A DNA stretch of 55,642 nt from Promethearchaeota archaeon (GCA_048938005.1 JBHLMQ010000016.1:1-55642); one strand, 5' to 3'. Shown: positions 33,070-53,703, counted from the stretch's first letter. A program made the numbers and translations. The notes: generated by a model not told the origin, from the letters alone.

Positions 33070-33112
33070 TTCATTATTACTATAATTTTTAATATCCTCT
33101 TAAGTGAAATTA

Positions 33113-33946: not shown

Positions 33947-33954
33947 GATGTGAT

Positions 33955-34992: not shown

Positions 34993-35029
34993 TTAATTGT
35001 TGAGATAGAAAAAATATATGAGAGAGAAA
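34990..35029 (+). repeat. 5' leader motif shared with the kat upstream region (copy 2)
   Basis: Same three 10-mers as 31776-31815, immediately before the kamA ATG. Confidence 0.55.
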
Positions 35030-35031
35030 AT

Positions 35032-36270: not shown

Positions 36271-36339
36271 TTCTAAAGTTTAAATAATTAAGATTTATTT
36301 CTGTTATTAACGAAAACTCCATTAGTTTTTGGCGATCAA

Positions 36340-37371: not shown

Positions 37372-37440
37372 TTTGGATAAACTTATTAAAAAATTATAAT
37401 AAATTTCATAATTGTGAAAAATATAAAGGAAGTGGGAAAT

Positions 37441-39012: not shown

Positions 39013-39013
39013 G

Positions 39014-39802
39014 ATGGGAGGAGGATTAAATTCAATGAAAAAGGAAGAATTTGATAAAAATCTTGATTTAACAAGAATTAAACCTTACGGAGATACAATT
39101 AATGACGGTAAGATACAATTAAGTTTTACCCTACCTGTAGAACATGATGAAAAAGCAATTGAAGCAGCAAAAGAGCTAACAGAAAAAATGGGACTAAAAG
39201 ATCCAGAAGTAGTATATCATACTTTATTAGACAAAGGATTCACCTATTTTGTAGTTTATGGAGAGTTAATTCATACAATCGATTATACTAAAATTCAAGT
39301 AGAATCTGTAGATGTAGAAGTAATGTCTAGAGACGAAATTAATGATTACATTAAAGAAAAGATTGGTCGTAAATTGGTTATACTTGGAGCGTCAACAGGA
39401 AGTGATGCTCACACTGTTGGAATAGATGCAATTATAAACATGAAAGGTTTTGCTGGTCATTATGGACTTGAACATTATGAAATGATAAAAGCCATAAACT
39501 TAGGCAGTCAAGTCTCAAATGAGGAATATGTTAAGCGAGCCATAGAACTTAAAGCTGATGTATTGCTTGTCTCCCAAACAGTTACACAAAAGGATATTCA
39601 TGTGAAAAACCTAACCCAATTAGTAGAATTATTGGAAGCCGAAGGAATAAGAGATCGTGTCATTTTAATTTGCGGTGGTACTAGAATAAGTAATGATTTA
39701 GCAAAAGAATTAGGTTATGATGCAGGTTTTGGACCAGGTACTTATGCTGAAATTGTGGCGTCTTTTGCTATTAAAGAGTTTGTAAGAAGAAAAGAAATAT
39801 GA
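39014..39802 (+). CDS. kamE: lysine 5,6-aminomutase beta subunit (AdoCbl-binding)
   Basis: KPYGDT.NDG.IQLSFTLP, DAHTVG (DxHxxG), NMKG (PLP Lys), VSQTVTQ, ELGYDAGFGPG. Confidence 0.96.
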   Translation: MGGGLNSMKKEEFDKNLDLTRIKPYGDTINDGKIQLSFTLPVEHDEKAIEAAKELTEKMGLKDPEVVYHTLLDKGFTYFVVYGELIHTIDYTKIQVESVDVEVMSRDEINDYIKEKIGRKLVILGASTGSDAHTVGIDAIINMKGFAGHYGLEHYEMIKAINLGSQVSNEEYVKRAIELKADVLLVSQTVTQKDIHVKNLTQLVELLEAEGIRDRVILICGGTRISNDLAKELGYDAGFGPGTYAEIVASFAIKEFVRRKEI

Positions 39803-39918: not shown

Positions 39919-42459
39919 TTAATAGTACACAATTTCTACAGATTCTTTTACTTTCCAGATGTCCCAGAAATGATATCTCATAGGTTTATAGGTCCACGTT
40001 TCATAAAGGGCTACTTGATCATATGCATGAGGGCTTATAATTACATTCCCTTCATTATCAAGGGTTATAAAGCCACTCTGTCCAGGTGGAATTACATTAA
40101 ATGCATTTGGAGTAGGATTCCAGAATCTATGCCACCATTTCTGTTTAGGCATTTCTACGACGTGATTATATGTACCACGATTCATATAATGCATAACTGG
40201 GGGTGGTAATGCTCCAAGTGAACTGGGAACCCATATTCGAACTGGAGTTAACCATGTTTCCATATCTGCACCTAATTCATCCCTTAAAGCTATCACAGCC
40301 GCTTTTAGTGCACGATTTATTACTTCATCTCTATCTTCTCCATTAAGATAATCATAATTTAGCGGTAACGTTGATTCAGGACCATCGAAAACATGAATTA
40401 TCGTGCTTGGCCATACTGTCGCAAGTTCACGATGGATGGGACCTATTGGAGGATAAACTGGAAGATCATCACTAAAAACCTCATCAAATATTTTCTCATA
40501 CCACTCATCAAATATCGTTAAACCAGGATCATCATAAGTAGCATCCGCGCTAGGCCATTGTGGCACTTCATAATCATTATAATGAAAATTCCAGGCTTCT
40601 AAATAAGGTAAAGCGGCTTGAATGTCTGGATCACTTGATCCACTCGCAGCATCTATTAAATAACCTAGAAGATTCATTCCACCTAAGTGAGTATAACCAG
40701 CATCTTTGTTAATTTCAATCATATCATCAAGAGTAAAATGGTCTTTTGCGGCCAGGAGTTGCATTATTCTTTTTACACGATGTCCTTCTCCCCAACCAGC
40801 ATCTGATTCGCCGTATGGCCAATTAGTTATCGGCTTATTGTTCCAATTTGCAAGCCAGCCCTGTTTAGGGTTGATGCATATTGGCATTTCATCAGGACCA
40901 GTAACCCCTATCCATTCTTCTTCTCCTGTTCCCCATAGAGGGAATCTGTCATCAATAGGTCTTTCATATAGACCTGTGGTAGGTTTTATGGGCCAAAAAC
41001 CTGAATGCCAATACCCTATATTTCCTTTTTTATCAGCCCAATAGAAATTATGAGCTGCTTCTACGTGTTTACAAGCAAAATCAAAATCTTTAATATTCTT
41101 TGCTTGTTGGAAAAGCGACCACCCTTCTTCAGCTGCCAGTTCTCTTTTGTAGTAAGGAGTCTTCATCGTAAAGCAAAGATTATTATCAAGATCCCATCCA
41201 ATAATAGGTCCATGGATTGTTCTGTATACATTTCTTTCTACATAGTAGGATTTTTTAAAACCATAAAATTTTTCAGTTCTCACTTCCATATCTATAAATT
41301 CACCGTTGTACCAGTATTGATATTGATTAGCAGGATTTAAAACTTCAATATAAGTATCCATATTATCTGTGACCCCTGTAGTAGACGTCCATGCGCCATC
41401 TTTACTAGCACCTATTAAAATAGAAGGGGCATGAGGCATCATCATACCTACTGCATCAATTCCCGCTCCATGCAACCCTACTTCGAGGACAATTTGTGGA
41501 ATTGATTGTCCCATTTGTGGACCACCTTGTTCAAGAGCATTTCTAGTTACAGATTTTGTAGGGCTGACAACCCAAGCATTGCTTCCGAACTTTGTTGGTA
41601 AGCCCAAAGATTCGAACAATGCTGCTTGACCCATTTTGAGGTTATTATATTTATGATACACATCCATAAAATCACAGTTATACCCATCTATTATACTATC
41701 CTTCCATGAATTAATATATTGTACATCAGGCCAAGCACCTTCTTCTATAGGGATTGTAACTTCTGCTCCCGGATCATTTTGTGGGAAATGATCATTAAAT
41801 ATATCCCATCCAACATCATTTCCATAAGCTTCTTGAAGTGCCATTAGTGCTGTTGCATATGATAATTCATCACCACCACACCCTCCAAATCTCCAAGCCA
41901 TCATAACTACTATAGCGACAGAATCTTCAATAGTCCAAGGTTCAATGGGAAGAAGTCCTTCAGGAGTGATAACACCTGGAAGATATTCTATAGGAATAAG
42001 GGAGGGATCTCCCTCTTCAAATAATCTTCTATGAGCTTCATTAATGTATTCATTAATACCATTGGTATAAGCAATCATCATTTCCTTAAGCTTTGCTTTA
42101 GGATTAGAAGGCACCCAGCTTTCAAATATTTCCAATAGTTCTTCTTTACTATATGCCATACTTCTGATATAATAATCAGCATCTAGGCTTGCCCATGGTA
42201 GAATTTCAGCTAAACTGCCATATCCCTGTCTTCGATATAGATCCGCTTGCCAGAGCCTATCCTGAGCCATAGTATAACCACAACCAAATGCTAATCCTTC
42301 TTTTGTGTTTGCGAAAATATGAGGAACACCATAATTATCTCTTATTATAGTGATTCTTCTACGACCCCAACCCCAACCACATGCATTCGCGGGGATGATT
42401 GGAATAATTAGAAACGAAGTTATAATTACCAATAAACAAATCCATAATTTTTTTTTCAT
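39919..42459 (-). CDS. secreted penicillin G acylase-family Ntn hydrolase
   Basis: Signal peptide MKKKLWICLLVII...ANA; IIRDNYGVPHI, AQDRLWQ, autocleavage GSNAW, GPQ, RTIHGP, ANWNNKP, PPGQSG. Confidence 0.92.
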   Translation of the reverse strand: MKKKLWICLLVIITSFLIIPIIPANACGWGWGRRRITIIRDNYGVPHIFANTKEGLAFGCGYTMAQDRLWQADLYRRQGYGSLAEILPWASLDADYYIRSMAYSKEELLEIFESWVPSNPKAKLKEMMIAYTNGINEYINEAHRRLFEEGDPSLIPIEYLPGVITPEGLLPIEPWTIEDSVAIVVMMAWRFGGCGGDELSYATALMALQEAYGNDVGWDIFNDHFPQNDPGAEVTIPIEEGAWPDVQYINSWKDSIIDGYNCDFMDVYHKYNNLKMGQAALFESLGLPTKFGSNAWVVSPTKSVTRNALEQGGPQMGQSIPQIVLEVGLHGAGIDAVGMMMPHAPSILIGASKDGAWTSTTGVTDNMDTYIEVLNPANQYQYWYNGEFIDMEVRTEKFYGFKKSYYVERNVYRTIHGPIIGWDLDNNLCFTMKTPYYKRELAAEEGWSLFQQAKNIKDFDFACKHVEAAHNFYWADKKGNIGYWHSGFWPIKPTTGLYERPIDDRFPLWGTGEEEWIGVTGPDEMPICINPKQGWLANWNNKPITNWPYGESDAGWGEGHRVKRIMQLLAAKDHFTLDDMIEINKDAGYTHLGGMNLLGYLIDAASGSSDPDIQAALPYLEAWNFHYNDYEVPQWPSADATYDDPGLTIFDEWYEKIFDEVFSDDLPVYPPIGPIHRELATVWPSTIIHVFDGPESTLPLNYDYLNGEDRDEVINRALKAAVIALRDELGADMETWLTPVRIWVPSSLGALPPPVMHYMNRGTYNHVVEMPKQKWWHRFWNPTPNAFNVIPPGQSGFITLDNEGNVIISPHAYDQVALYETWTYKPMRYHFWDIWKVKESVEIVYY

Positions 42460-42683: not shown

Positions 42684-43946
42684 ATGCCAACTTCAAAAGA
42701 ATTTATTGAAATGGATCTTAAATATTGTGCGCACAATTACCATCCAATCCCCGTTGTTATTTCACGTGCAGAAGGAGTTTGGGTTTATGATCCAGAAGGT
42801 AAGAAGTATCTTGATTGTTTATCAGCTTATTCAAGTCAAAATACTGGTCATTGTCATCCAGAAATTATTGCTTCTTTAAAGGAACAAGCAGATATTGTTA
42901 CACTTACTTCTCGAGCATTTCATAATGATATGATGGGTCCTTTTTTAAAAATGTTAGCAGACGTTGTAGGGCCACATATTAATGATCCCACAAATTCCGG
43001 TATAATGTCAATTCCTATGAATACGGGAACAGAAGCAATATCGACTGGTTTAAAAATGGCAAGAGCATGGGGGTATATAAAAAAGAAAATACCCAAAAAT
43101 GAAGCTAAAATCATAGTTTGCCGAAATAATTTTCATGGAAGAACCATTACCATTGTTGGTTTTAGTTCTGATATATCAGTGGTTCGCTATTATGGCAATT
43201 TTGGACCATATACCCCTGGTTTTATTATTATCCCTTATGGAGATGCTGAAGAATTAGAAAATGTTATTTTGGAAATTGGACCTGAAAAAGTAGCTGCTTT
43301 TTTGGTTGAGCCTATCCAAGGAGAAGCTGGCGTTAATGTCCCTCCAGAAGGATATTTAAGAAAAGCTCGAGAAATCTGTACAAAATATAATGTGTTGATG
43401 ATGTTAGATGAAATTCAAACTGGTTTTTGCAGAACGGGAGAGTTGTTTGCTTGTGATCATGAAAATGTAAAACCAGATATGCTACTATTAGGGAAAGCCC
43501 TTGGAGGCGGAGTGTATCCTGTGTCTGCCTGTGTAACCACAAGAGAAATTATAGGCCCAGATGTGATAATTCCTGGAAGTCATGGAAGCACTTTTGGAGG
43601 AAATCCTTTGGCTTGTGCTGTGGCAATGAAATCTATAGATATTCATCTACGTGAGAATCTTGCCGAGCGAGCAAAGGAGATGGGTGCTTACTTTATAAAA
43701 AGATTAAGAGAAATTGGTGAGAAAAGAACTAAAATTCCAATTAAAGATATAAGGGGGAAAGGGTTATTAATTGCTGTCGAATTTTCGGAGGATGCTAGAC
43801 AAATTGTTGAAGAACTCAAAGATAATGGAATATTAGCAAAAGATACACATTCTACAACTATTCGTTTTGCCCCACCCTTGGTTATTACGAAAGATGAGCT
43901 TGATTGGGCACTTGAAATCATAGAAAAAGTATTTGTAAAGCAATAA
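42684..43946 (+). CDS. rocD: ornithine--oxo-acid aminotransferase
   Basis: AHNYHP.PVV, LSAYS..N.GHCHP, LTSRAFHND, PMNTG.EA, FHGRT, EPIQGEAG, DEIQTG, LGKAL, HGSTFGGNPLAC. Confidence 0.93.
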   Translation: MPTSKEFIEMDLKYCAHNYHPIPVVISRAEGVWVYDPEGKKYLDCLSAYSSQNTGHCHPEIIASLKEQADIVTLTSRAFHNDMMGPFLKMLADVVGPHINDPTNSGIMSIPMNTGTEAISTGLKMARAWGYIKKKIPKNEAKIIVCRNNFHGRTITIVGFSSDISVVRYYGNFGPYTPGFIIIPYGDAEELENVILEIGPEKVAAFLVEPIQGEAGVNVPPEGYLRKAREICTKYNVLMMLDEIQTGFCRTGELFACDHENVKPDMLLLGKALGGGVYPVSACVTTREIIGPDVIIPGSHGSTFGGNPLACAVAMKSIDIHLRENLAERAKEMGAYFIKRLREIGEKRTKIPIKDIRGKGLLIAVEFSEDARQIVEELKDNGILAKDTHSTTIRFAPPLVITKDELDWALEIIEKVFVKQ

Positions 43947-43949
43947 AGA

Positions 43950-44867
43950 CTATTTATCTATAAAAAAATGAGTCCCAGCTCTTCCTTCTAATGCCTCTTC
44001 AATTTTTTCAATTGAAGTTATAATCGCTTTTTCTCCACCTTTTTCCATAAAATTTATTATTGCTTGAATTTTAGGGCCCATACTTCCAGCAGGAAATTGT
44101 CCTTCTTCCAAATATTTCTTTGCTTCTGCGATAGTAAGCTTATCTAAATCTTTTTGGTTAGGTGTACCATAATTAAGAGCAACTTTCTCAACATCAGTAG
44201 CAATGAGTAGTATATCCGCTCCTATTTGTTCAGCTAATTTAGAACTAGCAAGATCTTTATCTATTACAGCTTCAACACCATATAATCTTTTTGCTTCTTT
44301 TATAACGGGTATACCCCCTCCACCGCATGCAATTACAATCCAACTTTCTAATTCCATTAACTTCTTTATTTCACGCCATTGATAAATTTTTATTGGATTA
44401 GGAGAAGGAACAACTTGACGCCATCCTTTAGCTGTTTTAACCTGACCTGGTTTTGTGCGAACAGGATATGCAGGACCAATAGGTTTTGTGGGATTTTTAA
44501 ACGCAGGATCTTCAGCATCAACTTTCACATAGGTTAATACTGTTAAAAAAAGTTTTTCTTCATCGAGATTTATTTTCATAAGCTCCTCGTCTAATGTGCT
44601 CTCAATCATGAATCCAATCTGACCTTGGGTTTCTGCTACTAATATTTGTAACGGTCTTTTTGATACAAATTCAGTTGCTTCCTGTTGAAGTAAGAGATTA
44701 CCAACTTGTGGGCCATTACCATGTGTTATAATTATATTGTAGTTTTTTGCTAATTCTGCAATTTGGCTAATTGGAACTCTTAAATTCCGAAATTGTTCCT
44801 CAGTAGTGCCTTCTTCACCAAATTTTATTAAAGCATTTCCACCGAGTGCGACAATTAATGTTTTCAA
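43950..44867 (-). CDS. arcC: carbamate kinase
   Basis: ALGGNAL, THGNGPQVG, F.NPTKPIGP, R.VVPSP, GGGGIPV, EAVIDKD, GSMGPK. Confidence 0.96.
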   Translation of the reverse strand: MKTLIVALGGNALIKFGEEGTTEEQFRNLRVPISQIAELAKNYNIIITHGNGPQVGNLLLQQEATEFVSKRPLQILVAETQGQIGFMIESTLDEELMKINLDEEKLFLTVLTYVKVDAEDPAFKNPTKPIGPAYPVRTKPGQVKTAKGWRQVVPSPNPIKIYQWREIKKLMELESWIVIACGGGGIPVIKEAKRLYGVEAVIDKDLASSKLAEQIGADILLIATDVEKVALNYGTPNQKDLDKLTIAEAKKYLEEGQFPAGSMGPKIQAIINFMEKGGEKAIITSIEKIEEALEGRAGTHFFIDK

Positions 44868-44933
44868 AAAAAATTCTCCAATATATATTTAATTTCCACA
44901 AATGGAAAAAATAAATATTATTTAACTTATTAT

Positions 44934-45866
44934 TTAAAATTTATCTCGTAAAAAGAGCATAATAGCTTTTTGGATATGTAATCTATTTTCAGCTTGGTCA
45001 AATACAATTGATTGAGGACCGTCAATAACCTTTGCCGTTTGTTCATAATCCCTCATAGCTGGCAAGCAATTCATAAACACAGCATTGGGTTTTGCTGTTA
45101 ACATAATTGATTTTGTCACTTGAAATGGCATAAAAACTTTTTTTCTTTCTTCTTCTTTGTCTGCTGGAATACCATAACTCATCCAACTATCAGTATAAAT
45201 AACATCAGCGTCTCTAGCAGCTCCCATTGCTTCATGAACTACTCTTACATCAGCTCCAGTTTCTTTAGAAAGTTCTGATACCTCATTCAAAACGATTTTC
45301 TCCGGAGAATATTGTGGATCAGCTGGGCAAGCTACATCCATTCTCCAGCCAAACATAGCACACATCCTCATTAAATCATATGTTACATTATTGTAAGCAT
45401 CCCCAAAATATGATAACTTTAAGTTATCAAGCTTACCTTTTTTCTCTTTTATAGTCAAAAAATCACCTAGGATTTGACATGGGTGTGCGAAATCATCCAA
45501 CATATTTATCACCGGGACATCGGCATATTTAGCGAGATCCCAAATATCTTGCCTTTTAAAAACCCTGGCAGCGATGATATTAACAAATCTAGAAGCAACT
45601 TTCGCTGTATCCGAAATGTTTTCCTTTTTCCCTAAGGGTGAATCTTTTATTGAGTAAAAAATTGCATGCCCTCCTAATTGTTGCATGCCAGTCTCAAAAG
45701 ATATTCGAGTTCTTAAGGAAGGCTTTTCAAATAGCATTAAGAGGGTTTCTCCTTCTAAAAAAGAACTAAATTTTTTAGGATTTTTCTTTAACTCAATTGC
45801 TTTATTAATAACCCTCTCGCATTCAGCCTTTGAAAAATCTGAGACTTTTAATAGATGTCTAACCAT
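44934..45866 (-). CDS. arcB: ornithine carbamoyltransferase (Giardia/metamonad-like signature)
   Basis: KPSLRTR, HPCQ, NNVTYDLMR, YTDSWMSY, FMNCLPA.R..EQT..VIDGP.S, QAENRLH. Confidence 0.93.
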   Translation of the reverse strand: MVRHLLKVSDFSKAECERVINKAIELKKNPKKFSSFLEGETLLMLFEKPSLRTRISFETGMQQLGGHAIFYSIKDSPLGKKENISDTAKVASRFVNIIAARVFKRQDIWDLAKYADVPVINMLDDFAHPCQILGDFLTIKEKKGKLDNLKLSYFGDAYNNVTYDLMRMCAMFGWRMDVACPADPQYSPEKIVLNEVSELSKETGADVRVVHEAMGAARDADVIYTDSWMSYGIPADKEEERKKVFMPFQVTKSIMLTAKPNAVFMNCLPAMRDYEQTAKVIDGPQSIVFDQAENRLHIQKAIMLFLRDKF

Positions 45867-45974
45867 TTTCAGTATTTTAGAATTTTAGATAATAATTAAG
45901 TATTAAAAAGAAAGATTAGATATAAATCAAAATATATGAATTACAACAGCTTATATTATCCAATTTCAGAAGAT

Positions 45975-47141
45975 TCATTTCAGTTCTTCTTCAACACAAA
46001 AGTCTCTGTTACATGAGAGATTATTTAAGATTTCATTATCCTTTGGAGTTGTCTTTTCTGTTATTAGCCGACTTAAAAGTTCTCCTAAACCTGGTCCCAG
46101 CATAAAGCCTTGGCCACACATACCAACTGCATTAATATAACCCTCTATTTCACCTACTTTACCAATTATAGGATTTCCATCTGGTGTCATCGGATACAGA
46201 CCACGCCAAGTTCTTCTAACTTTTATATTTCTTAACCGTGGCAACAAATGTATCATTCTTTTTGAAATCTGAGGTAGGAAAGAACTTGTTTCTTGTCTGT
46301 CAATACCAGGGATATTTGGTTCAGGTGTTAAGCAAAAAATAATTTTTCCTTCTTTATTTTGATAGAAATAATAGTTGCTTGAATTTCCAAATTTAGGGTC
46401 GATAAATGGTTTAATATCAACAATCATGGATGAGAAAAATTTCTTTACCGGCTCAGTTATTCCTGCTTCATGAGATTCTGGTTCTACTGGAGTAATAACA
46501 CTAACCATATTACCAATCTCTTTTGCATGAGCTCCTGCAGCATTGATAATAGAGTTAGTTTTATATTTTCCATTAGAAGTTTTAATCCCTACAACTTTAT
46601 CTTTTTTAGTTAAGATATCAATAACTTTTTCATTAAAATGATATTCCGCTCCTGAATTTTTTGAGTATCTATAGAATGAATGTAAGGCCAATAAAGGTGA
46701 AGCATTACCATCTTCAGGACTATGCGTTCCACCTAACAATTCATTTTCATTGATTCCAGGTAAAATCTCTTTGATTTTTTCAGCGTCAACATAGTTAATA
46801 TTCAAACCGTAACTTTTTTGAACTTTTACTGTATCCTTTAATAATTTTTCATGTTCTTCTGTGAATGCTAAGAAAGTATAACCACCTTGATTCCACCAGA
46901 TATCATCTCCATACTTTTCTTCCCAAGAAGAAAAAATTTCTATTGACCTTTGGCATAACCATATCTTTCCTTTATGTGAGTGAGTAGCTCTAATACCACC
47001 AATAGCATGTTTATTGTCTGCTTGAGCAACTGAAGGCAAATAATCGATAACCAATGTTTTTAATCCATCATTTACAGTAGCTAGAGCAGTTGGGACGCCT
47101 ACACTTCCAGCACCGATGATGATAACATCATATTCAACCAT
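45975..47141 (-). CDS. FAD-dependent amine oxidoreductase (proline dehydrogenase/sarcosine oxidase beta-like)
   Basis: GAGSVG, INAAGA.A, ITEP, R.W.G.Y.MTPDGNPIIG, G.GFMLGP. Confidence 0.88.
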   Translation of the reverse strand: MVEYDVIIIGAGSVGVPTALATVNDGLKTLVIDYLPSVAQADNKHAIGGIRATHSHKGKIWLCQRSIEIFSSWEEKYGDDIWWNQGGYTFLAFTEEHEKLLKDTVKVQKSYGLNINYVDAEKIKEILPGINENELLGGTHSPEDGNASPLLALHSFYRYSKNSGAEYHFNEKVIDILTKKDKVVGIKTSNGKYKTNSIINAAGAHAKEIGNMVSVITPVEPESHEAGITEPVKKFFSSMIVDIKPFIDPKFGNSSNYYFYQNKEGKIIFCLTPEPNIPGIDRQETSSFLPQISKRMIHLLPRLRNIKVRRTWRGLYPMTPDGNPIIGKVGEIEGYINAVGMCGQGFMLGPGLGELLSRLITEKTTPKDNEILNNLSCNRDFCVEEELK

Positions 47142-49226
47142 CTAAGGCTCCTCCTTTTTATTTTTAACATTAGCAAATATACCCATCGGAACTTCAATAA
47201 ACAGAGGACGTTTTGTACCAGGAATAACATCGTCAACCGATACTCCTTCTTCCCGAAATATCTTCTCGATTAAAGGAGTGCATGTTTTACCTCCACAAGC
47301 TCCCATTCCTACTTTAGTTAAAGCCTTCAATTCATTAAAATCTCTGACTCCTGACCGTATCCACCTTCGAATTTCACCTACTGAAACACGTTCACATCTA
47401 CATACTATAATTTTATCATCAGTAAATGATCTTTGGTAAACATCTATTGGCTCATTAAATTTAGTCTCATAAAGTTTAATTGCTACAGCTTGTTTTGCCA
47501 ATTCTGATGTTAATTTAATAGTTATTAGTTGAGTCTTAGGAAATTCTTTCAATATTCTCGATCTATGAATTTCATATGCCCCTAATTCTCCTTCATTGCT
47601 AATAACAATAACTTTTTGTCCTTTCTCTAATTTCTTTTCAGTAAGTTCAAACGGAAAAGTAACTAGTGGATTTTTTTTATCTTTACGATAATCAATTAAT
47701 ACAACAGCTAAACCAGGACACACAGCTACACATTTTCCACATCCAATACAATCTTTTTCACCCTTAAAATATGGTAATTGGGTAATTAAATCATCAATAG
47801 TCTCAATTTGTTTTTGATCACATACAGTTGTACATGGATTACAGGGAATTTCTTGATTACAATAAAAAACAGGATAGATTCCTTCTTCTTTGAATTTTAT
47901 TTTCGTTTCAATAGGTTGTGGAGGTTTTGCTTTCATGACTTCTGCAAAATTTTCTAATTCATTAATATCTTCTGAAATTTCAATTCCAATTTCTCTAAGA
48001 ATCTTTAAAGCTTCAATTCTTCCAGTAAATATAGCAGCAGAAGCTTCAGCGATCTCTTGAGCATCACCAGCAACCCAAACCTTAAATCCAAATTCTTTTG
48101 CTTTCTGATAAAATTCATCGACAGGATTTAAACCTATAGCAATTAAAATAGTATCACAAACAAATGTTTTTTCTGTTCCAGATATAATATTAAAATCCCT
48201 ATCAATTTGAGCAATTGTTATAGATTCTACTGATTTATCCCCATTAGCAGAGACGATCGTATGACTTGTGTAGATTGGAACACCTAATCTTCTAAGTTTG
48301 TCTTCATGGACTTTATAACCTCCACATAGAGGTAATGCTTCAATTAAACCAATGACATCTATTCCTGCTTGAATTGCATGATATCCAGCAATTAATCCAA
48401 CATTTCCTCCTCCAACAATAAAAATTTTGTCTGCAGCTTTTACTAAATCACGATTTACCAATGTTTGAAAAGCTCCAGCACCATATACTCCGGGAAGGGT
48501 ATTTCCAGGAAAAACTAACATTTTTTCCCTTGCACCAGTAGCAATTAATAAGTACTTAGGCTTCACCAAAACATATTTATTATTATCCTTTAAAATTCCT
48601 ACCATCCCATCGCTAAATACTGCTAAACAAACACTATTTAACCAAATTTTAATTTTAGATAATCCTCGAATAGATTCCCCTAAAATTTTTGCAATATCTA
48701 TGCCACGTTTACCAGCATAAACATCTTTTTGTGAGCCAAAAAATTTATGTGTTTGAAGAACCAATTTACCTCCAAGTTCAGCTTTATCGTCAATTAAGAT
48801 CACCTCAACATTATTTTCTCCTAATATTTTTGTGGCTGATAATCCTGCTGGACCAGCACCTATAACCAATACTTCTATGTCTATAATTTCAGAATCTCCA
48901 ACAGTCACAGGATTATCAATTGCAGGTAATTCTGGTAATCCATTACAACTTTCTATTACCATCCCTTCTTTAAGAGGTGTCATGCATGCTTTTACTGGAA
49001 TACCATATACAATAACATTACATTGAGCACATTGACCATTAGCACAAAACATACCCTGAGGGCTGTTGTCTTTTGGGTGATAACCAAAAATTTTTATTTT
49101 ATTAAGAAAAAGCGCTGATGATATAACCATTCCTTCAAATCCATTTAACTTTATACCATCAAAACTAAAATTAATCTTCTTTCTTTCTGGTATCTCTAAA
49201 ATAGGATGTGTTATTATATCTTCCAT
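47142..49226 (-). CDS. proline dehydrogenase/sarcosine oxidase alpha-like multidomain subunit (2Fe-2S + FAD/NAD + 4Fe-4S + BFD-like)
   Basis: CANGQCAQC..KAC; GAGPAGL, GGKLVLQTHKFFG, ATGARE, GGGNVG; CNPCTTVC, CIGCGKCVAVCPG; CRCE...GMGACGGKTC..RP. Confidence 0.88.
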   Translation of the reverse strand: MEDIITHPILEIPERKKINFSFDGIKLNGFEGMVISSALFLNKIKIFGYHPKDNSPQGMFCANGQCAQCNVIVYGIPVKACMTPLKEGMVIESCNGLPELPAIDNPVTVGDSEIIDIEVLVIGAGPAGLSATKILGENNVEVILIDDKAELGGKLVLQTHKFFGSQKDVYAGKRGIDIAKILGESIRGLSKIKIWLNSVCLAVFSDGMVGILKDNNKYVLVKPKYLLIATGAREKMLVFPGNTLPGVYGAGAFQTLVNRDLVKAADKIFIVGGGNVGLIAGYHAIQAGIDVIGLIEALPLCGGYKVHEDKLRRLGVPIYTSHTIVSANGDKSVESITIAQIDRDFNIISGTEKTFVCDTILIAIGLNPVDEFYQKAKEFGFKVWVAGDAQEIAEASAAIFTGRIEALKILREIGIEISEDINELENFAEVMKAKPPQPIETKIKFKEEGIYPVFYCNQEIPCNPCTTVCDQKQIETIDDLITQLPYFKGEKDCIGCGKCVAVCPGLAVVLIDYRKDKKNPLVTFPFELTEKKLEKGQKVIVISNEGELGAYEIHRSRILKEFPKTQLITIKLTSELAKQAVAIKLYETKFNEPIDVYQRSFTDDKIIVCRCERVSVGEIRRWIRSGVRDFNELKALTKVGMGACGGKTCTPLIEKIFREEGVSVDDVIPGTKRPLFIEVPMGIFANVKNKKEEP

Positions 49227-49257
49227 TTAAAATCTAAATTAATCTTTTTAAGAATAT

Positions 49258-51438
49258 TCATTGGTGAGGTTTTATGAACTTTATGACATCTTCATAATCA
49301 ATTCCTAGTTCTTTTACTTTTTCAATTGTAGGGCAACCATTTTGATTCCATCCCCGTTCTTTATAGACAGCATCTTGAAGCTTCGAATACTGTTCTTCGC
49401 GATGTTTTCGAAGAATTTTAATCTTTTCTTCTGTCATCTTATCAGTTAAATCAAATCCTAATTCTTTAAGTTGGTTATCATATCTATCTTGGCGACTCTC
49501 GTATTCTAAAGGTAAAACTGGCCCCATTGCTCTATAAGGTAGATTTGAGTCACCTTCACGTAAGCCTTGTCCTAAACGAATATTAAAAATTCTTTGAAAA
49601 TTGTAAACTCGTTCTGACATTTTAATAAGATCATCTGGAGTTGAATTTCTACCCGTTACAGCTGAAAAATATTTTGCATACCATTCAACATGATAAGGTA
49701 TTCTTGCTTGAAGGAGTTCTCCTGTGGTAGGATCTTTTACAGGAAGTTCTTTATTTTGGGGCCCTATAGCATCATTCCAAGGTAATTTACAAAGCCCATT
49801 CAATCCGAACCAGGTTCGCCAATAAGGAAACCACCTTAATGCCTTTGCTTTATCTTCAAAAGTTGGAATTGTATTTCTTACCATATCTTCAAAAATTAAC
49901 CAGGCTTCATCATGTTGAGGTCCTTTGAGTGCTAACCCGTATCCTCCTTGTTGAGCGAGAGATTCTTTTGTTATATATTCTGAGAATTCTAGACCTTTAT
50001 GTTCCATACCAATATCTTGAAGAAATTGAGGATCCCCACCATAATTTTCAGCAAAATATTTCTTCATTTCTCTTATCCCTTTTCCCACAATTACTCCAAA
50101 ACCTTCTCCTCTCGCCATCTGATGAAGTAATTCTAAAGCTGCTTCAGCATTACCAAAATTAAGTTCAAGACCTCCAGTAATTTCTTTATCAAGTATTCCT
50201 TCTTCATAACATTCCATTACAAACCCAATCCCTGTACCCGTTGATATAGTGTCCAATCCATATGTATCACAATAGAAATTCACTTCAAGAACCCATTTTA
50301 TATCCCAAACACCCCAATTTGAACCACAACCAGCTATAGTTTCATATTCTGGTCCATCTACGATCACTTCTTGACCTTTAAAAGGACCTGTCAAAACTTT
50401 ATGTCCAGTTGTATAGTGTGAGCAACTCATTGTACAACCAATCCAGCACCCATCCGTCCCTTCTTTTACATGATACACCTTTCGCATTCTCTCGCGACTA
50501 TAAGGTATATTTTTATCTTTTATATCTTTATGAGAACCATAACGAAAATTTTCAACTGGTAAAAGATCAACAACATTCATTATATCTGGTAAATATCCAG
50601 TTCCTACACTCCTCATTTCATTCTGCGAGGAGTCAATATCAACAATTTCCTTACTATGTATTTTCCCTAACTCTCTAGCAGCTTCTAAATCTGCAGGATT
50701 ATTTGATTTTACCGTGACTCTAGGAGCACGACAGACCAAAGCCTTTATTTTTTTATTAGAAAATACTGTTCCTATACCGCCCCGCCCCGCTTGTTTAACA
50801 GAAGCATATTTACGTGTTGTAGTGTACCAAGAGAAATTTAACATCCCCCATTTTGAGTGTTTTGCAGCTGGACCACTGCTTACAACCGAGATCTGTCTTT
50901 TTTCAGCATCATCTTTCGCATATTTTTCTGTTAATTGTTGGTTGAGTTCATGCGAGTATTCTGAAAATCCATCTGAATCTTGTACTTGATATATTTGGAC
51001 TAAGCCTTCTATCCCATCAATAGAGATAATCACATCGCTTTCTGCTTTTCCTTGGATCTCAATAGCATCAAATCCAGAAAATTTTAGATACGGTCCAAAA
51101 TATCCACCCACGTTACTGTCTATAATTATACCTGTTAAAGGAGATATTGAAGTAACTAAGGATTTACCTGATCCTGGATAAAAAATACTACCTCCTAATG
51201 GTCCGGAAGAAATACAAATTTCATTTTCAGGGTCATTCCATTTAATTATACGATCTTTTGGGATAGAATTCCACATAACCCATAAATCAAAACCCTTTCC
51301 TCCGATAAATTTTTCTTTCATTTCTTCAGAGACAAGCTTTATAGTAATCTCATTTCTTGAAAGGTTGACATATAAAGTTCGATTTGCATAACCCTTTTGA
51401 ACTTCTTGGATTTCAAATTTCTTTTCTGCCAAAATCAT
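49258..51438 (-). CDS. aor: aldehyde:ferredoxin oxidoreductase family protein, paralog 3 (long type)
   Basis: FIGGKG, SPLTG...DSNVGGYFGP, QAGRGG.G, CWIGCTMSC, GPEYET, CDTYGLDTIS, KGPQHDEAWL, RGW...G.PT. Confidence 0.9.
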   Translation of the reverse strand: MILAEKKFEIQEVQKGYANRTLYVNLSRNEITIKLVSEEMKEKFIGGKGFDLWVMWNSIPKDRIIKWNDPENEICISSGPLGGSIFYPGSGKSLVTSISPLTGIIIDSNVGGYFGPYLKFSGFDAIEIQGKAESDVIISIDGIEGLVQIYQVQDSDGFSEYSHELNQQLTEKYAKDDAEKRQISVVSSGPAAKHSKWGMLNFSWYTTTRKYASVKQAGRGGIGTVFSNKKIKALVCRAPRVTVKSNNPADLEAARELGKIHSKEIVDIDSSQNEMRSVGTGYLPDIMNVVDLLPVENFRYGSHKDIKDKNIPYSRERMRKVYHVKEGTDGCWIGCTMSCSHYTTGHKVLTGPFKGQEVIVDGPEYETIAGCGSNWGVWDIKWVLEVNFYCDTYGLDTISTGTGIGFVMECYEEGILDKEITGGLELNFGNAEAALELLHQMARGEGFGVIVGKGIREMKKYFAENYGGDPQFLQDIGMEHKGLEFSEYITKESLAQQGGYGLALKGPQHDEAWLIFEDMVRNTIPTFEDKAKALRWFPYWRTWFGLNGLCKLPWNDAIGPQNKELPVKDPTTGELLQARIPYHVEWYAKYFSAVTGRNSTPDDLIKMSERVYNFQRIFNIRLGQGLREGDSNLPYRAMGPVLPLEYESRQDRYDNQLKELGFDLTDKMTEEKIKILRKHREEQYSKLQDAVYKERGWNQNGCPTIEKVKELGIDYEDVIKFIKPHQ

Positions 51439-51606
51439 AGAATTTCATTCCTTAAAGTTCTAATTGTTAAATTAAAAACATAATTATAAACTATGGATGA
51501 TTTAATGAGACTTTAGAATTAAATATTATTTATACAAATCTAAGTTAAGTATTTGAAAAAAAGATATAGAATGATCTTAAATTGTTTTATTCCGAAAAGG
51601 GTTAAT

Positions 51607-52170
51607 TTAAATTTTATTAGCTAAATCTTTAGCCCATTTACGAATCTCGTCCCAGTTTCTTGAATCATAAACTCCTGGTTCTGTTTCTTTAAATCCTGCT
51701 GGAATGAAATTATCTTTTTCAGCATCTAGGGCTTTTCTATAAATTTTACCCATCTGATTATAGTCCCAGATACCTCCAAACATATTCATTGAGATTGGAT
51801 TTAAACCATATTTAGAAGCTTTACCTTTAAGATATTTTTTAGTTATTCTATCAATTTCATCATGTTTTCCTTTATATTCCATGAGTGCTCGCCCACCAGA
51901 CGACACGAAGAGTGCCACTTTCTTTTTTTTGAGCTCATTGCTAAACTTATTTAAAAATGCTTTAGCTTTACTCGTCCACATGTCCATTTTCATTCCACTA
52001 GCAACTATAACAAGTTCAAATTTTGATATATCTTTGACCTTCTCTTCTTTGAGATTTACAGTTTTTACTTCAAATCCTTCACCTTGAAAAACTTTGGCAA
52101 TTTCTTCTGCGGTACCAGCTGTTGCTCCATAACGAGTACCATACGCAATTAATATTTTGGTTTTTTCCAT
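51607..52170 (-). CDS. flavodoxin-domain protein (HemG-like long-chain flavodoxin)
   Basis: ILIAYGTRYGAT..AEEIA, VALFVS, FGG, D.RNWDEIRKWA. Confidence 0.85.
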   Translation of the reverse strand: MEKTKILIAYGTRYGATAGTAEEIAKVFQGEGFEVKTVNLKEEKVKDISKFELVIVASGMKMDMWTSKAKAFLNKFSNELKKKKVALFVSSGGRALMEYKGKHDEIDRITKKYLKGKASKYGLNPISMNMFGGIWDYNQMGKIYRKALDAEKDNFIPAGFKETEPGVYDSRNWDEIRKWAKDLANKI

Positions 52171-52203
52171 TTTCTTCCCTCTATTAAAATCTAATTTTTA
52201 TTG

Positions 52204-53544
52204 TTATTTTTTTAAGAATTTATTAATAAAATCATCAAGAACTTCTTCAATAGTAGGACTTCCGATTGGCTCAATATCATACGATACTTTCACAATTGGT
52301 TTATTTGTTTTAATTAATTTAGTTAAGTCTATAGGACTTCCATTTAGGATTATATCTGCCTTCGCATTATTGAGTGTTTTTTCTAAGTCTTCTATTTGTT
52401 GGTCTGTGTATCCCATAGCAGGTACAATTTGTGTAATCTGAGGGAAATCTTCGAATACCTCTTTCATAGATCCTACTAAATATTTTCTGGGGTCCATAAT
52501 TTTAGCTTCTGCATTTATAGCAGCAACATATGCCGCTCCAATTGACATGCCTCCATGAGTCAAAGTAGGGCCATCCTCGACGACTACAACTTTCTTTCCT
52601 TTCAGTTTTAAATGATCTTCTGCTTTAACTACTGAATTTGTATAGACTTTTACGGCTTTTGGATTTAAATCATTAAGGTTTTTCTCCACAATTTTTACAT
52701 CTTCTGGTTTGGCAGTATTCATTTTGTTTATGACAAAAACATCTGCATACTTTGCATTAACTTCTCCGGGATGATATTTAATTTCGTGTCCCGGTCTTAA
52801 TGGATCAGTCACAACAAAAAGTAAATCTGTAATATAAAAAGATATCTCATTATTTCCTCCATCGAATATAATCACATCTGCTTCTTTTTCAGCCTCCCGA
52901 ATTATTTTCTCATAATCAACTCCAGAATATATTACTAATCCTTGCTCAATATAAGGTTCATATTCTTCCCGTTCTTCAATAGTACAATCATATTTATCTA
53001 AATCCTCATATTTCTCAAATCTCATTACATTTTGTTGAACTAAGTCTCCGTAAGGCATTGGCTCGCGAATCGCAACAACTTTGTACCCTTTACTCTTTAA
53101 ATACCGATATGTTGCTCGAGAAACTTGACTTTTTCCACACCCCGTCCTAACAGCACAGATTGCAATAACAGGCTTATTAGCCTTGAGTTGAGTGAATTTT
53201 CCTGAAATTAATCGGTAATTAGCACCAGCAGCGAGTGCTCTTGAAGCTTTATGCATGACTTCCTCATGAGAAACATCTGAATAGGCAAAAACAACCTCAT
53301 CAACGTTATGTTTCTTAATCAAATCTTCAAGCATGTCTTCTGAGACCATTGGAATTCCTTTTGGATATAATTTTCCTGCCAATTCTGCAGGAAACTTTCT
53401 TTCAGCTTCATCAGTAGTACCAATGTTTTGTTCTCCAGCAATAGTAAACGTTATAACATCATATTCTGCATTGTCTCTAAAAACTGTGTTAAAAACATGG
53501 AAATCGTAACCTAATGCTCCAATGATAATAACTTTTTTTTTCAT
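52204..53544 (-). CDS. COG2403 P-loop protein, arginine synthetase (ArcE)-like
   Basis: DFH.FN..FRDN, VFAYSDV, AVRTGCGKSQ, PMPYGDL, TIEEREEYE, GVDY, DGGNN, YHPGE, VEDGPTLTHGGM, PAMGY; clustered with arcB/arcC with no arginine deiminase in the window. Confidence 0.8.
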   Translation of the reverse strand: MKKKVIIIGALGYDFHVFNTVFRDNAEYDVITFTIAGEQNIGTTDEAERKFPAELAGKLYPKGIPMVSEDMLEDLIKKHNVDEVVFAYSDVSHEEVMHKASRALAAGANYRLISGKFTQLKANKPVIAICAVRTGCGKSQVSRATYRYLKSKGYKVVAIREPMPYGDLVQQNVMRFEKYEDLDKYDCTIEEREEYEPYIEQGLVIYSGVDYEKIIREAEKEADVIIFDGGNNEISFYITDLLFVVTDPLRPGHEIKYHPGEVNAKYADVFVINKMNTAKPEDVKIVEKNLNDLNPKAVKVYTNSVVKAEDHLKLKGKKVVVVEDGPTLTHGGMSIGAAYVAAINAEAKIMDPRKYLVGSMKEVFEDFPQITQIVPAMGYTDQQIEDLEKTLNNAKADIILNGSPIDLTKLIKTNKPIVKVSYDIEPIGSPTIEEVLDDFINKFLKK

Positions 53545-53703
53545 TTTAAGTACCTAGAAAATATTAACCTTATTGATCATCTTACTTAATTTAAGACAAA
53601 TTATTAAGATTTTCAATTCTATCAAGGGAATGATGACCCACCGTTAAATATGGCCATAACAAACGAGAAGAATAAAATAGGTTTAATAGTTTTAAACACT
53701 TAG

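What the first reader, a model, noticed from the sequence alone, without database searches (positions are those of the whole stretch)
42684..53544. Deiminase-free arginine/proline catabolic module: ArcE-like ATPase, OTC, carbamate kinase, RocD, fused proline dehydrogenase and a tungsten AOR
Seen: seven co-oriented minus-strand genes (COG2403, flavodoxin, AOR3, PDH-alpha, PDH-beta, arcB, arcC; gaps 33, 168, 31, 0, 108, 66 bp) converge on rocD, and there is no arginine deiminase or arginase in the window. Established: the Thermococcus kodakarensis COG2403 protein ArcE is an arginine synthetase (Arg+ADP+Pi to citrulline+NH3+ATP) that works with OTC and carbamate kinase; RocD and proline dehydrogenase both yield glutamate semialdehyde/P5C. 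Inference: an Asgard archaeon conserves 2 ATP per arginine and channels both ornithine and proline to glutamate semialdehyde from one locus.
Basis: partly seen in the sequence, partly recalled or inferred. Interest (0 to 1): 0.85.

Follow-up and report, generated by a model that had tools for sequence, protein, structure and literature searches.

The report
Asgard arginine synthetase cluster with embedded oxidoreductases
A Loki-type Asgard archaeon carries the recently described ATP-saving arginine breakdown genes in one conserved cluster with a proline-dehydrogenase-like complex and an unstudied tungsten-type aldehyde enzyme, an extension of a known pathway whose extra steps have not been tested.

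Summary
All eight genes lie at the stated coordinates with the stated gaps.

The 446-aa protein belongs to the ArcE (arginine synthetase) family. It is 41-56% identical over its full length to homologs from genera that the describing paper lists. It scores only 22 bits against a solved cyclic 2,3-diphosphoglycerate synthetase.

The genome is 95% complete. It shows no arginine deiminase and no arginase; its one ureohydrolase is an agmatinase. It also lacks argG, argH, argC and proA, but has carB.

The order arcE-(flavodoxin)-AOR-alpha-DAO-arcB-arcC, facing rocD, recurs across Loki-type genomes. AOR follows arcE in 40 of 45 loci that are long enough to show it.

Arginine catabolism yielding ATP is the best reading. 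A reversed, arginine-making reading is not excluded.

Three points remain inference:
- the proline assignment of the flavoenzyme pair;
- a glutamate-semialdehyde role for the AOR;
- co-transcription.

Neighbourhoods of the AOR's nearest non-Loki relatives gave no support for the AOR role.

The core pathway was published in 2024 and Lokiarchaeota are mentioned there. This scan had already noted the same cluster in another genome. I could not obtain TK2200 itself for comparison.

The parts
53545..53645 (-). Conserved upstream region of arcE. It holds a GGG-N-CCC palindrome-like 16-mer at 53626-53641, followed by AT-rich conserved blocks. Probably an operator plus promoter.
   Evidence: The 16-mer (up to 3 substitutions, GGG and CCC kept) occurs in 37 of 52 Asgard arcE upstream regions, 77-88 nt before the start. 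The whole genome has 4 matches, and only this one has 1 or fewer substitutions. No Rfam hit. No covariation, only 3 invariant G-C pairs.
52204..53544 (-). ArcE-family protein (arginine synthetase family, COG2403-type P-loop), 446 aa.
51607..52170 (-). Flavodoxin (Flavodoxin_5), 187 aa. A variable member of the cluster.
   Evidence: Present downstream of arcE in 15 of 45 Asgard loci with at least 3 kb downstream.
49258..51438 (-). AOR-family tungsto/molybdopterin oxidoreductase, 726 aa, of an uncharacterised clade.
47142..49226 (-). Electron-transfer flavoprotein, 694 aa, with 2Fe-2S (Fer2_4), Pyr_redox_2, 4Fe-4S dicluster and BFD-like 2Fe-2S domains. It resembles PDH-alpha, SoxA and HcnA+HcnB.
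45975..47141 (-). DAO-family FAD dehydrogenase, 388 aa. Its closest solved relative is the beta subunit of Pyrococcus horikoshii L-proline dehydrogenase.
   Evidence: 1y56_B scores 181 bits and the next best chain 83 bits..
44934..45866 (-). Ornithine carbamoyltransferase (arcB/argF).
   Evidence: TIGR00658, 353.6 bits, cut-off 280.85.
43950..44867 (-). Carbamate kinase (arcC).
   Evidence: TIGR00746, 374.7 bits, cut-off 358.25.
42684..43946 (+). Ornithine--oxo-acid aminotransferase (rocD), convergent with arcC.
   Evidence: TIGR01885, 520 bits, cut-off 378.4..

Best explanation
The cluster is an accessory amino-acid catabolic module of a Loki-type Asgard archaeon, built round the arginine synthetase pathway.

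Inferred from family membership and context:
- ArcE converts arginine, ADP and phosphate to citrulline, ammonia and ATP.
- Ornithine carbamoyltransferase splits citrulline to ornithine and carbamoyl phosphate.
- Carbamate kinase makes a second ATP.
- RocD transaminates ornithine to glutamate semialdehyde/P5C.

More weakly inferred:
- The DAO protein, with the 694-aa iron-sulfur flavoprotein, oxidises proline to the same P5C.
- The embedded AOR-family enzyme oxidises glutamate semialdehyde to glutamate and passes electrons to flavodoxin or ferredoxin. The genome has no recognisable P5C dehydrogenase.

My odds for each step:
- ArcE-family membership: about 0.9.
- Catabolic direction: about 0.7.
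- Proline as the substrate of the flavoenzyme pair: about 0.5.
- Glutamate semialdehyde as the AOR substrate: about 0.3-0.35.
For: Gene identities rest on curated cut-offs.

ArcE family:
- Full-length identity of 56% to Coprothermobacter, where arcB and arcC follow directly.
- 41-45% identity to Pyrodictium, Hyperthermus, Desulfurococcus and Pyrobaculum MAGs. The paper lists these genera as arcE holders.
- Only 22 bits to cDPGS, PDB 9sxb.
- In 80 diverse ArcE loci, arcC lies within 6 kb in 13 and arcB in 8.

Own genome:
- No ADI.
- The one ureohydrolase is an agmatinase next to deoxyhypusine synthase.
- carB is present, so the pathway is not needed as a carbamoyl-phosphate source.
- No argC or proA, so there is no de novo ornithine for biosynthesis.
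- The single ALDH is unassigned. P5CDH models score 151-173 bits against cut-offs near 650.

Synteny, among 57 Asgard-clade arcE loci, counting only those long enough:
- AOR in 40 of 45.
- The alpha-like gene in 37 of 38.
- DAO in 35 of 37.
- arcB in 26 of 33.

In six of 61 class genomes arcE and argG occur together, where a catabolic role is the simple reading. A lysine-fermentation cluster lies directly upstream. The AOR keeps its expected cysteines and pterin-region residues in all 17 aligned sequences.
Against: - No activity, expression or co-transcription data exist. No RNA run holds the stretch.
- T-runs of 5 or more lie in three intergenic gaps.
- TK2200 itself was never compared, because four collection scans returned no Thermococcus record.
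- The genome lacks argG and argH. In 61 class genomes arcE and argG are largely complementary: 30 arcE only, 16 argG only, 6 both, 9 neither. That pattern also fits a biosynthetic use.
- The AOR clade is not tied to the cluster. Eight of 43 AOR-positive genomes lack arcE, DAO and rocD.
- About 19 Loki loci carry a 66-74% identical AOR with no arc genes nearby.
- None of 20 neighbours of the nearest non-Loki homologs that I scanned is a proline or ornithine enzyme.
- The genome has 14 other AOR paralogs and one unassigned ALDH that could oxidise the semialdehyde.
- The alpha-like protein scores higher to sarcosine oxidase alpha (86.6 bits) than to PH1363 (72.9 bits).
Confidence: 0.58

Rival explanations
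1. The same genes run mainly towards arginine. Proline (via the DAO complex) or glutamate (via AOR working as an acid reductase) gives glutamate semialdehyde. RocD makes ornithine, OTC makes citrulline with carbamoyl phosphate from CPS or carbamate kinase, and ArcE spends ATP and ammonia to make arginine. This would replace the missing ArgG/ArgH.
For: The own genome has no argG and no argH above cut-off, but has carB. In the class survey arcE and argG are largely complementary: 30 arcE only and 16 argG only of 61. In T. kodakarensis ArcE can work towards arginine when citrulline is supplied, and the authors raise a biosynthetic role for organisms that lack ArgG/ArgH (PMC11032458, abstract and Discussion).
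Against: - Nine of 61 genomes lack both arcE and argG. Two are 99%-complete same-genus genomes that have none of the cluster genes (G001, G009). Arginine auxotrophy is therefore viable there.
- Six genomes have both genes.
- Carbamate kinase and rocD are typical catabolic partners.
- A lysine-fermentation cluster is adjacent.
- Acid reduction by an AOR needs very low-potential electrons (established knowledge, not tested here).
- Related genomes are not independent samples.
Confidence: 0.2
2. Only arcE, arcB, arcC and rocD form the arginine module. The AOR, the flavoprotein pair and the flavodoxin are a separate redox unit inserted between them. That unit acts on another secondary amine (sarcosine, an opine, D-proline or hydroxyproline) and on unrelated aldehydes.
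For: - L052 has arcE-arcB-arcC-rocD with no insert.
- In family f2 the genes are dispersed. In G055, AOR lies about 240 kb from arcE and DAO about 150 kb from it.
- The AOR clade occurs in 8 genomes without arcE, DAO or rocD.
- No NCBIfam equivalog cut-off is met by the DAO, alpha-like or AOR proteins.
- Neighbours of the non-Loki AOR homologs are unrelated to amino-acid catabolism.
Against: - The insert sits in the same place in most Loki-type loci: 35-40 of 37-45.
- The DAO protein is far closer to the proline dehydrogenase beta subunit 1Y56_B (181 bits) than to any other solved enzyme (83 bits or less).
- Proline oxidation and RocD give the same product.
- 42 of 43 AOR-positive genomes encode some enzyme that makes glutamate semialdehyde. 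Such enzymes are common, so this is weak.
Confidence: 0.17
3. The pathway serves mainly to supply carbamoyl phosphate for pyrimidines and hydrogenase maturation, as shown for T. kodakarensis.
For: PMC13260591 (abstract) shows this role in Thermococcales that lack CPS.
Against: The own genome has a full carB at 1467 bits, cut-off 1027. A carbamate kinase gene, which consumes carbamoyl phosphate, sits in the cluster.
Confidence: 0.04
4. The 446-aa protein is a cyclic 2,3-diphosphoglycerate synthetase, as many database records call its close relatives.
For: Source names of close relatives read 'cyclic 2,3-diphosphoglycerate synthase'. The only PDB match is a cDPGS.
Against: That match is 22 bits (E 5e-4) over about 125 residues. 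Family members score 350-500 bits and sit beside arcB/arcC in many phyla. The organism is a low-GC sediment archaeon. cDPG is known from hyperthermophilic methanogens; this last point is recalled, not from a call.
Confidence: 0.01

Closest known systems
Arginine synthetase pathway of Thermococcus kodakarensis (ArcE TK2200, ArcB TK0871, ArcC TK2158; Michimori et al. 2024, PMC11032458; I read the abstract, two Results sections and the Discussion)
   Same: An ArcE-family protein together with OTC and carbamate kinase, and no arginine deiminase in the genome. The paper itself notes arcE near arcB/arcC in some genomes and arcE homologs in Lokiarchaeota.
   Different: Here all three genes are in one cluster, with rocD, a flavodoxin, an AOR-family enzyme and a proline-dehydrogenase-like pair placed between arcE and arcB. 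The organism has CPS, which T. kodakarensis lacks. No enzyme was assayed, and TK2200 was not compared directly.
Arginine deiminase (ADI) pathway, arcABC
   Same: The OTC and carbamate kinase steps, and the overall conversion of arginine to ornithine, ammonia, CO2 and ATP.
   Different: There is no arcA. In 61 class genomes PF02274 gives only partial hits of 35 bits or less in ORFs of about 255 aa. The first step is presumed to conserve an extra ATP.
Dye-linked L-proline dehydrogenase of Pyrococcus horikoshii (PH1363/PH1364, PDB 1Y56)
   Same: The DAO protein's best solved relative is 1Y56_B (181 bits). The partner protein matches 1Y56_A over its first 260 residues or so.
   Different: The partner is 694 aa and carries extra 4Fe-4S and BFD-like 2Fe-2S domains. 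It scores slightly better to sarcosine oxidase alpha. The substrate is untested.
PutA (bifunctional proline dehydrogenase / P5C dehydrogenase) and RocA-type P5C dehydrogenase
   Same: If the AOR oxidises glutamate semialdehyde, the DAO complex plus AOR would carry out the same two-step proline-to-glutamate oxidation, encoded side by side.
   Different: The protein families are unrelated: DAO-type rather than PutA-type PRODH, and a pterin enzyme rather than an NAD-dependent ALDH. This is a functional analogy only and is not shown.
Aldehyde:ferredoxin oxidoreductases with solved structures (1AOR, 1B25, 8C0Z, 6X6U, 9Q1T)
   Same: AFOR_N and AFOR_C domains are present. Three clustered cysteines plus a fourth are conserved, as are the EYE, DTIS and QHDE positions. 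I matched these to AOR residue roles from memory.
   Different: The best match is only 183 bits. The protein is about 110-120 aa longer. It is at most 28% identical to the 14 other AOR paralogs of the same genome. No NCBIfam subfamily cut-off is met.
Cyclic 2,3-diphosphoglycerate synthetase (PDB 9SXB)
   Same: A distant P-loop relative of similar length.
   Different: Only 22 bits over about 125 residues. The paper uses this family as an outgroup to ArcE.

Membership tests
ArcE / arginine synthetase family | Full-length homology to proteins that the describing paper counts as arcE homologs | tested here: met
   56% identity to Coprothermobacter, and 41-45% to Pyrodictium, Hyperthermus, Desulfurococcus and Pyrobaculum MAG proteins, all over about 440 of 446 residues. 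One search lists these genera. The tree of 155 rows places the window's protein inside the family.
ArcE / arginine synthetase family | Orthology to the one characterised enzyme, TK2200 | not tested
   None (each keeping the best 80 loci) returned a Thermococcales record. One search, the fourth and last allowed genome-contig scan, was run with the AOR. The tools give no access to the sequence by name.
ArcE / arginine synthetase family | Clearly separate from cyclic 2,3-diphosphoglycerate synthetase | tested here: met
   22.2 bits, E 5e-4, against 9sxb. No rooted tree with cDPGS could be built because no cDPGS sequence was obtainable as a stored protein.
ArcE / arginine synthetase family | P-loop nucleotide-binding motif | tested here: met
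   G-C-G-K-S lies at residues 135-139. In the 13-sequence alignment the G is invariant and the K nearly invariant. That this is the ATP site is inference.
ArcE / arginine synthetase family | Genomic association with arcB and arcC, and no arcA | tested here: met
ArcE / arginine synthetase family | Catalysis of Arg + ADP + Pi <-> Cit + NH3 + ATP | not testable with these tools
   Needs an enzyme assay.
Arginine deiminase pathway | Presence of arcA | tested here: not met
   TIGR01078 and PF02274 gave 0 matches in the 95.28%-complete genome. The controls rang in 3 named genomes.
Arginase route | An arginase (rocF) | tested here: not met
   There is one PF00491 protein. It scores 176.2 bits to the agmatinase model TIGR01230 (cut-off 174.3) and 103 bits to rocF (cut-off 227.6). 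It sits next to deoxyhypusine synthase.
Thermococcales-type L-proline dehydrogenase | A beta subunit of the DAO family closest to PH1364 | tested here: met
   1y56_B at 181.2 bits, next best chain 82.6 bits.
Thermococcales-type L-proline dehydrogenase | An alpha subunit equivalent to PH1363 | tested here: inconclusive
   72.9 bits to 1y56_A over residues 14-273, but 86.6 bits to sarcosine oxidase alpha. Extra Fer4 and BFD domains are present.
Thermococcales-type L-proline dehydrogenase | L-proline as substrate | not testable with these tools
   No NCBIfam equivalog cut-off is met.
AOR family (tungsto/molybdopterin aldehyde oxidoreductases) | AFOR_N and AFOR_C domains with conserved cluster and pterin-region residues | tested here: met
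   159 and 327 bits. C331, C335, C339, C550, E364/E366, D396 and H509 are invariant in 17 sequences. I assigned their roles from memory of the P. furiosus enzyme.
Named AOR subfamilies (YdhV-type AOR, GAPOR) | Score above the curated equivalog cut-off | tested here: not met
   PRK09849 at 112.6 bits (cut-off 868); GAPOR_Arch at 43.1 bits (cut-off 1300).
Canonical P5C dehydrogenase in the genome | An ALDH above the P5CDH cut-off | tested here: not met
   There is a single PF00171 protein. It scores 151.3 bits to TIGR01237 (cut-off 659.65) and 173.1 bits to NF002852 (cut-off 648).

The most novel reading that the evidence does not exclude
The 726-aa AOR clade is a ferredoxin- or flavodoxin-linked glutamate-gamma-semialdehyde (P5C) oxidoreductase. 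Together with the DAO and iron-sulfur flavoprotein pair it would form an anaerobe's counterpart of PutA. The cluster would then take both arginine and proline all the way to glutamate without any NAD-dependent P5C dehydrogenase, or, run in reverse, make the semialdehyde from glutamate.
Probability: 0.3. Interest if true: 0.7.

Novelty: new variant of a known kind. Interest (0 to 1): 0.5.

Why it matters
Asgard archaea are thought to live largely on amino acids, and each ATP per substrate matters to such slow, energy-limited cells. This cluster would give a concrete gene set for arginine and possibly proline use in the lineage closest to eukaryotes. It corrects a widespread database label: close relatives are named cDPG synthase or GTPase. 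It also points to an assayable candidate for a missing step, the oxidation of glutamate semialdehyde in anaerobes that lack P5C dehydrogenase. The conserved, genome-unique sequence upstream of arcE offers a handle for finding the regulator.

Tried and rejected
- Fetching a Thermococcus ArcE failed. Scans with the window's ArcE, a Thermoproteota representative and a Pyrodictiaceae ArcE each kept 80 loci, none from Thermococcales. Names for 10 representatives gave only 'GTPase'. The ESM Atlas gave only 'putative GTPase' clusters.
- No RNA holder was listed for the stretch, so I could not test expression or co-transcription and did not use read laying.
- Complex prediction with the AOR plus residues 440-694 of the alpha-like protein gave no verdict.
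- The arcE leader gave no Rfam match and no covariation, so I dropped the riboswitch idea.
- Neighbours of the nearest non-Loki AOR homologs are unrelated to amino-acid catabolism: 20 proteins from Chloroflexi, Aminicenantes, Heimdall and one uncultured archaeon. The earlier scan note about bacterial neighbourhoods was therefore not reproduced in this sample.
- The literature searches found no paper that describes this cluster or links an AOR to glutamate semialdehyde/P5C. C. sticklandii (PMC3091704, passages only) was a false lead. The main text of Imachi 2020 (PMC7015854) has none of the six words I searched.
SI Table S1 and Figs S2B, S10 and S11 of PMC11032458 may already show Lokiarchaeota arcE clusters.
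- The bacterial promoter/terminator scanner was not used because it does not cover archaeal promoters. I counted T-runs only.

Full report
**Observation.** One search lists eight ORFs at exactly the coordinates given:
- rocD, 42684-43946 (+)
- arcC, 43950-44867 (-)
- arcB, 44934-45866 (-)
- a DAO-type gene, 45975-47141 (-)
- a 694-aa gene, 47142-49226 (-)
- an AOR-family gene, 49258-51438 (-)
- a flavodoxin gene, 51607-52170 (-)
- a 446-aa gene, 52204-53544 (-)

The gaps are 33, 168, 31, 0, 108 and 66 bp, and arcC and rocD converge 3 bp apart. The region is about 31-34% G+C, like the rest of the window.

**Gene identities.** Three proteins pass curated NCBIfam equivalog cut-offs:
- ornithine--oxo-acid transaminase, TIGR01885, 520 bits against 378.4
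- carbamate kinase, TIGR00746, 374.7 bits against 358.25
- ornithine carbamoyltransferase, TIGR00658, 353.6 bits against 280.85

The 388-aa protein is a DAO-family flavoenzyme. Its best solved relative is chain B of 1Y56 at 181 bits, and the next chain reaches 83 bits. From memory, 1Y56 is the Pyrococcus horikoshii L-proline dehydrogenase complex; the PDB record names the chains 'sarcosine oxidase' and 'PH1363'.

The 694-aa protein carries Fer2_4, Pyr_redox_2, a 4Fe-4S dicluster and a BFD-like 2Fe-2S domain. It matches sarcosine oxidase alpha at 86.6 bits and 1Y56_A at 72.9 bits.

The 726-aa protein has AFOR_N and AFOR_C domains. Its best solved match is 1AOR at 183 bits, and it reaches no NCBIfam subfamily cut-off. 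In an alignment of 17 clade members, C331, C335, C339, C550, E364/E366, D396 and H509 are invariant. They align with the cluster and pterin-region residues of 1AOR. The roles of those residues are recalled, not taken from a call.

**The ArcE-like protein.**
- It has no Pfam or NCBIfam match at E<=0.001, and only weak P-loop hits at E<=10.
- Its only PDB match is a cyclic 2,3-diphosphoglycerate synthetase, at 22 bits over about 125 residues.
- The best 120 relatives listed in the 5.8-billion-protein collection are 82-94% identical. They come from Asgard MAGs and are named 'cyclic 2,3-diphosphoglycerate synthase', 'GTPase' or 'predicted GTPase'.
- A full scan of cluster representatives found 2937 proteins at E<=0.001 and 409 at E<=1e-30.
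- Michimori et al. (PMC11032458; I read the abstract, section 6 and the Discussion) showed that T. kodakarensis TK2200 is arginine synthetase. They state that arcE homologs lie near arcB/arcC in some genomes, occur in Lokiarchaeota, and are only distantly similar to cDPG synthase.
- I could not obtain TK2200.
- In its place I compared the window's protein with genera the paper names. It is 56% identical to Coprothermobacter, where arcB and arcC follow directly, and 41-45% identical to Pyrodictium, Hyperthermus, Desulfurococcus and Pyrobaculum MAG proteins, all over the full length.
- In 80 diverse family loci, arcC lies within 6 kb in 13 and arcB in 8.
- A FastTree of 155 rows puts the window's protein in a clade of 57 Asgard-type rows (local support 100), next to DPANN rows whose arcE also sits beside arcB/arcC.

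Family membership is therefore well supported. Orthology to the assayed enzyme is inferred.

**Rest of the genome.** The assembly is 3.72 Mb in 101 contigs, 95.28% complete and 7.23% contaminated.
- No match to arcA (TIGR01078) or to the ADI family PF02274.
- The one ureohydrolase reaches the agmatinase cut-off, not the arginase one, and sits beside deoxyhypusine synthase.
- carB is present at 1467 bits.
- argG gives no match. argH and argC give nothing above cut-off. proA gives no match and proC is present.
- The only ALDH-family protein is unassigned and far below the P5C dehydrogenase cut-offs.
- There are 15 AOR-family genes. The cluster copy is at most 28% identical to the other 14.

**Conservation of the cluster.** Of 57 Asgard-clade arcE loci, I counted only those with enough downstream sequence:
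- AOR follows in 40 of 45.
- The alpha-like gene follows in 37 of 38.
- DAO follows in 35 of 37.
- arcB follows in 26 of 33.
- arcC follows in 12 of 32. The 10-kb flank and inserted genes limit this count.
- A flavodoxin follows in 15 of 45.

AOR-centred loci show the convergent rocD at the far end in many cases. One Loki-type locus (L052) has arcE-arcB-arcC-rocD with no insert.

**Class survey.** I searched 61 genomes of the class, each at least 80% complete, including the window's own (tallied).

| Feature | Genomes of 61 |
|---|---|
| arcE | 36 |
| cluster-type AOR | 43 |
| DAO | 36 |
| rocD above cut-off | 34 |
| argG with a strong match | 22 |
| proA | 12 |
| proC | 38 |

- PF02274 gave only partial hits of 35 bits or less, in ORFs of about 255 aa, in 12 genomes. 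No full deiminase was seen.
- arcE against argG: both 6, arcE only 30, argG only 16, neither 9.
- Two 99%-complete genomes of the same genus (G001, G009) lack arcE, AOR, DAO, rocD and argG alike. The module is therefore accessory and arginine auxotrophy is viable.
- At least one 'arcE-negative' genome looks like an assembly break: in G041 the contig starts 234 bases before the AOR.
- These genomes are kin, so the counts are descriptive only.

**The AOR.**

For a role in oxidising glutamate semialdehyde:
- It has a fixed place between arcE and the flavoprotein genes.
- The genome has no recognisable P5C dehydrogenase.
- 42 of 43 AOR-positive genomes encode some maker of the semialdehyde (DAO, rocD or proA).
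- In six Loki loci where a 70-74% identical AOR stands outside the cluster, a P5C reductase gene lies two genes away on the other strand. The same holds in G054.

Against it:
- Eight AOR-positive genomes lack arcE, DAO and rocD.
- About 19 Loki loci carry the AOR with no arc genes within 8 kb.
- In family f2 the genes are dispersed.
- The nearest non-Loki homologs are 58-61% identical: 13 Chloroflexi loci, one Aminicenantes, one Heimdall and one uncultured archaeon. None of the 20 of their neighbours that I scanned is an ornithine, proline or P5C enzyme. The recurrent neighbour is a small polyferredoxin.
- Semialdehyde-forming enzymes are common, so the co-occurrence is weak evidence.

I put this role at about 0.3.

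**Regulation and transcription.** The arcE upstream region is conserved. A 16-mer with GGG and CCC arms lies at window 53626-53641. It is found 77-88 nt before the start in 37 of 52 Asgard arcE upstream regions, and is followed by conserved AT-rich blocks. The whole genome has only this one close copy. There is no Rfam match and no covariation. I read it as an operator plus promoter. T-runs of five or more lie in the 168-, 108- and 66-bp gaps, so there may be several transcripts. No RNA run holds the stretch.

**Context.** Directly upstream (31816-39802, + strand) lie lysine-fermentation genes: lysine 2,3-aminomutase, D-lysine 5,6-aminomutase alpha and beta, a BKACE enzyme and a class-III aminotransferase. 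This fits a catabolic island for basic amino acids.

**Mechanism and rivals.** Catabolism is the best reading:
- Arginine to citrulline with ATP gain (ArcE).
- Citrulline phosphorolysis (ArcB).
- A second ATP (ArcC).
- Ornithine to glutamate semialdehyde (RocD).
- Probably proline feeding into the same intermediate, and possibly AOR-dependent oxidation to glutamate with flavodoxin or ferredoxin as acceptor.

Nothing here is shown biochemically. The main rival is the same enzyme set run towards arginine. It would explain the missing argG/argH and the partial complementarity with argG. Against it stand the genomes that hold both genes, the genomes that hold neither, the carbamate kinase, and the neighbouring fermentation genes. 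A carbamoyl-phosphate supply role, as in T. kodakarensis (PMC13260591, abstract), is unlikely because carB is present.

**Novelty.** The core pathway is known, and the paper already mentions Lokiarchaeota. The supplementary maps, which I could not open, may show such clusters. My searches found no paper describing the embedded AOR, flavoprotein pair and flavodoxin, or an AOR acting on glutamate semialdehyde. The scan's own notes show the same cluster was reported before on another genome (e1-5864665). I reached the AOR idea independently, but I could not reproduce that note's bacterial-neighbourhood support in my sample. I class this as a new variant of a known kind, of moderate interest.

Noticed in passing
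window 53545-53645 (- strand), core 53626-53641: A conserved upstream element of arcE that is unique in the genome. It has GGG ... CCC arms and is followed by conserved AT-rich blocks. The 16-mer occurs in 37 of 52 Asgard arcE upstream regions. No Rfam hit and no covariation. Probably an operator plus promoter for an unknown regulator.
   Followed up: partly
window 31816-39802 (+ strand): Lysine-fermentation-type cluster: a class-III aminotransferase, a BKACE (3-keto-5-aminohexanoate cleavage type), lysine 2,3-aminomutase, D-lysine 5,6-aminomutase alpha and B12-binding beta, plus two proteins of 345 and 343 aa with no Pfam match.
   Followed up: partly
window 625-2547 (-) and 19941-21821 (+); genome-wide: The window holds two more AOR-family genes, one directly after an iron-type alcohol dehydrogenase gene (18631-19917). 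The genome holds 15 AOR-family genes in all, a large expansion.
   Followed up: partly
G000 contig C33:2088-2828: A second carbamate-kinase-like stretch, 75% identical to the cluster's arcC over 249 residues. It could be a second copy or contamination; the assembly is rated 7.2% contaminated.
   Followed up: no
L201, L202, L205, L206, L215, L221 (AOR-centred loci): Loki-type copies of the same AOR clade (70-74% identity) stand outside any arc cluster. Next to them are an amino-acid-kinase-family gene, a GHMP kinase gene and a P5C reductase gene, on mixed strands.
   Followed up: partly
window 39919-42459 (-): An 846-aa penicillin-amidase-family (Ntn hydrolase) gene runs divergently from rocD, 224 bp away. 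I did not check whether it belongs to the module.
   Followed up: no
L177 (AOR 8001-10178), and G060, G003, G017, G042, G015, G026 in the survey: Several relatives show single in-frame TAA stops inside otherwise intact AOR or arcE genes. These could be sequencing errors, pseudogenes or recoding. I did not examine them.
   Followed up: no
L212 (2.1-kb contig titled Rikenellaceae): A 77% identical copy of the Asgard AOR sits on a short contig binned as a Bacteroidota genome. Mis-binning seems more likely than transfer.
   Followed up: no
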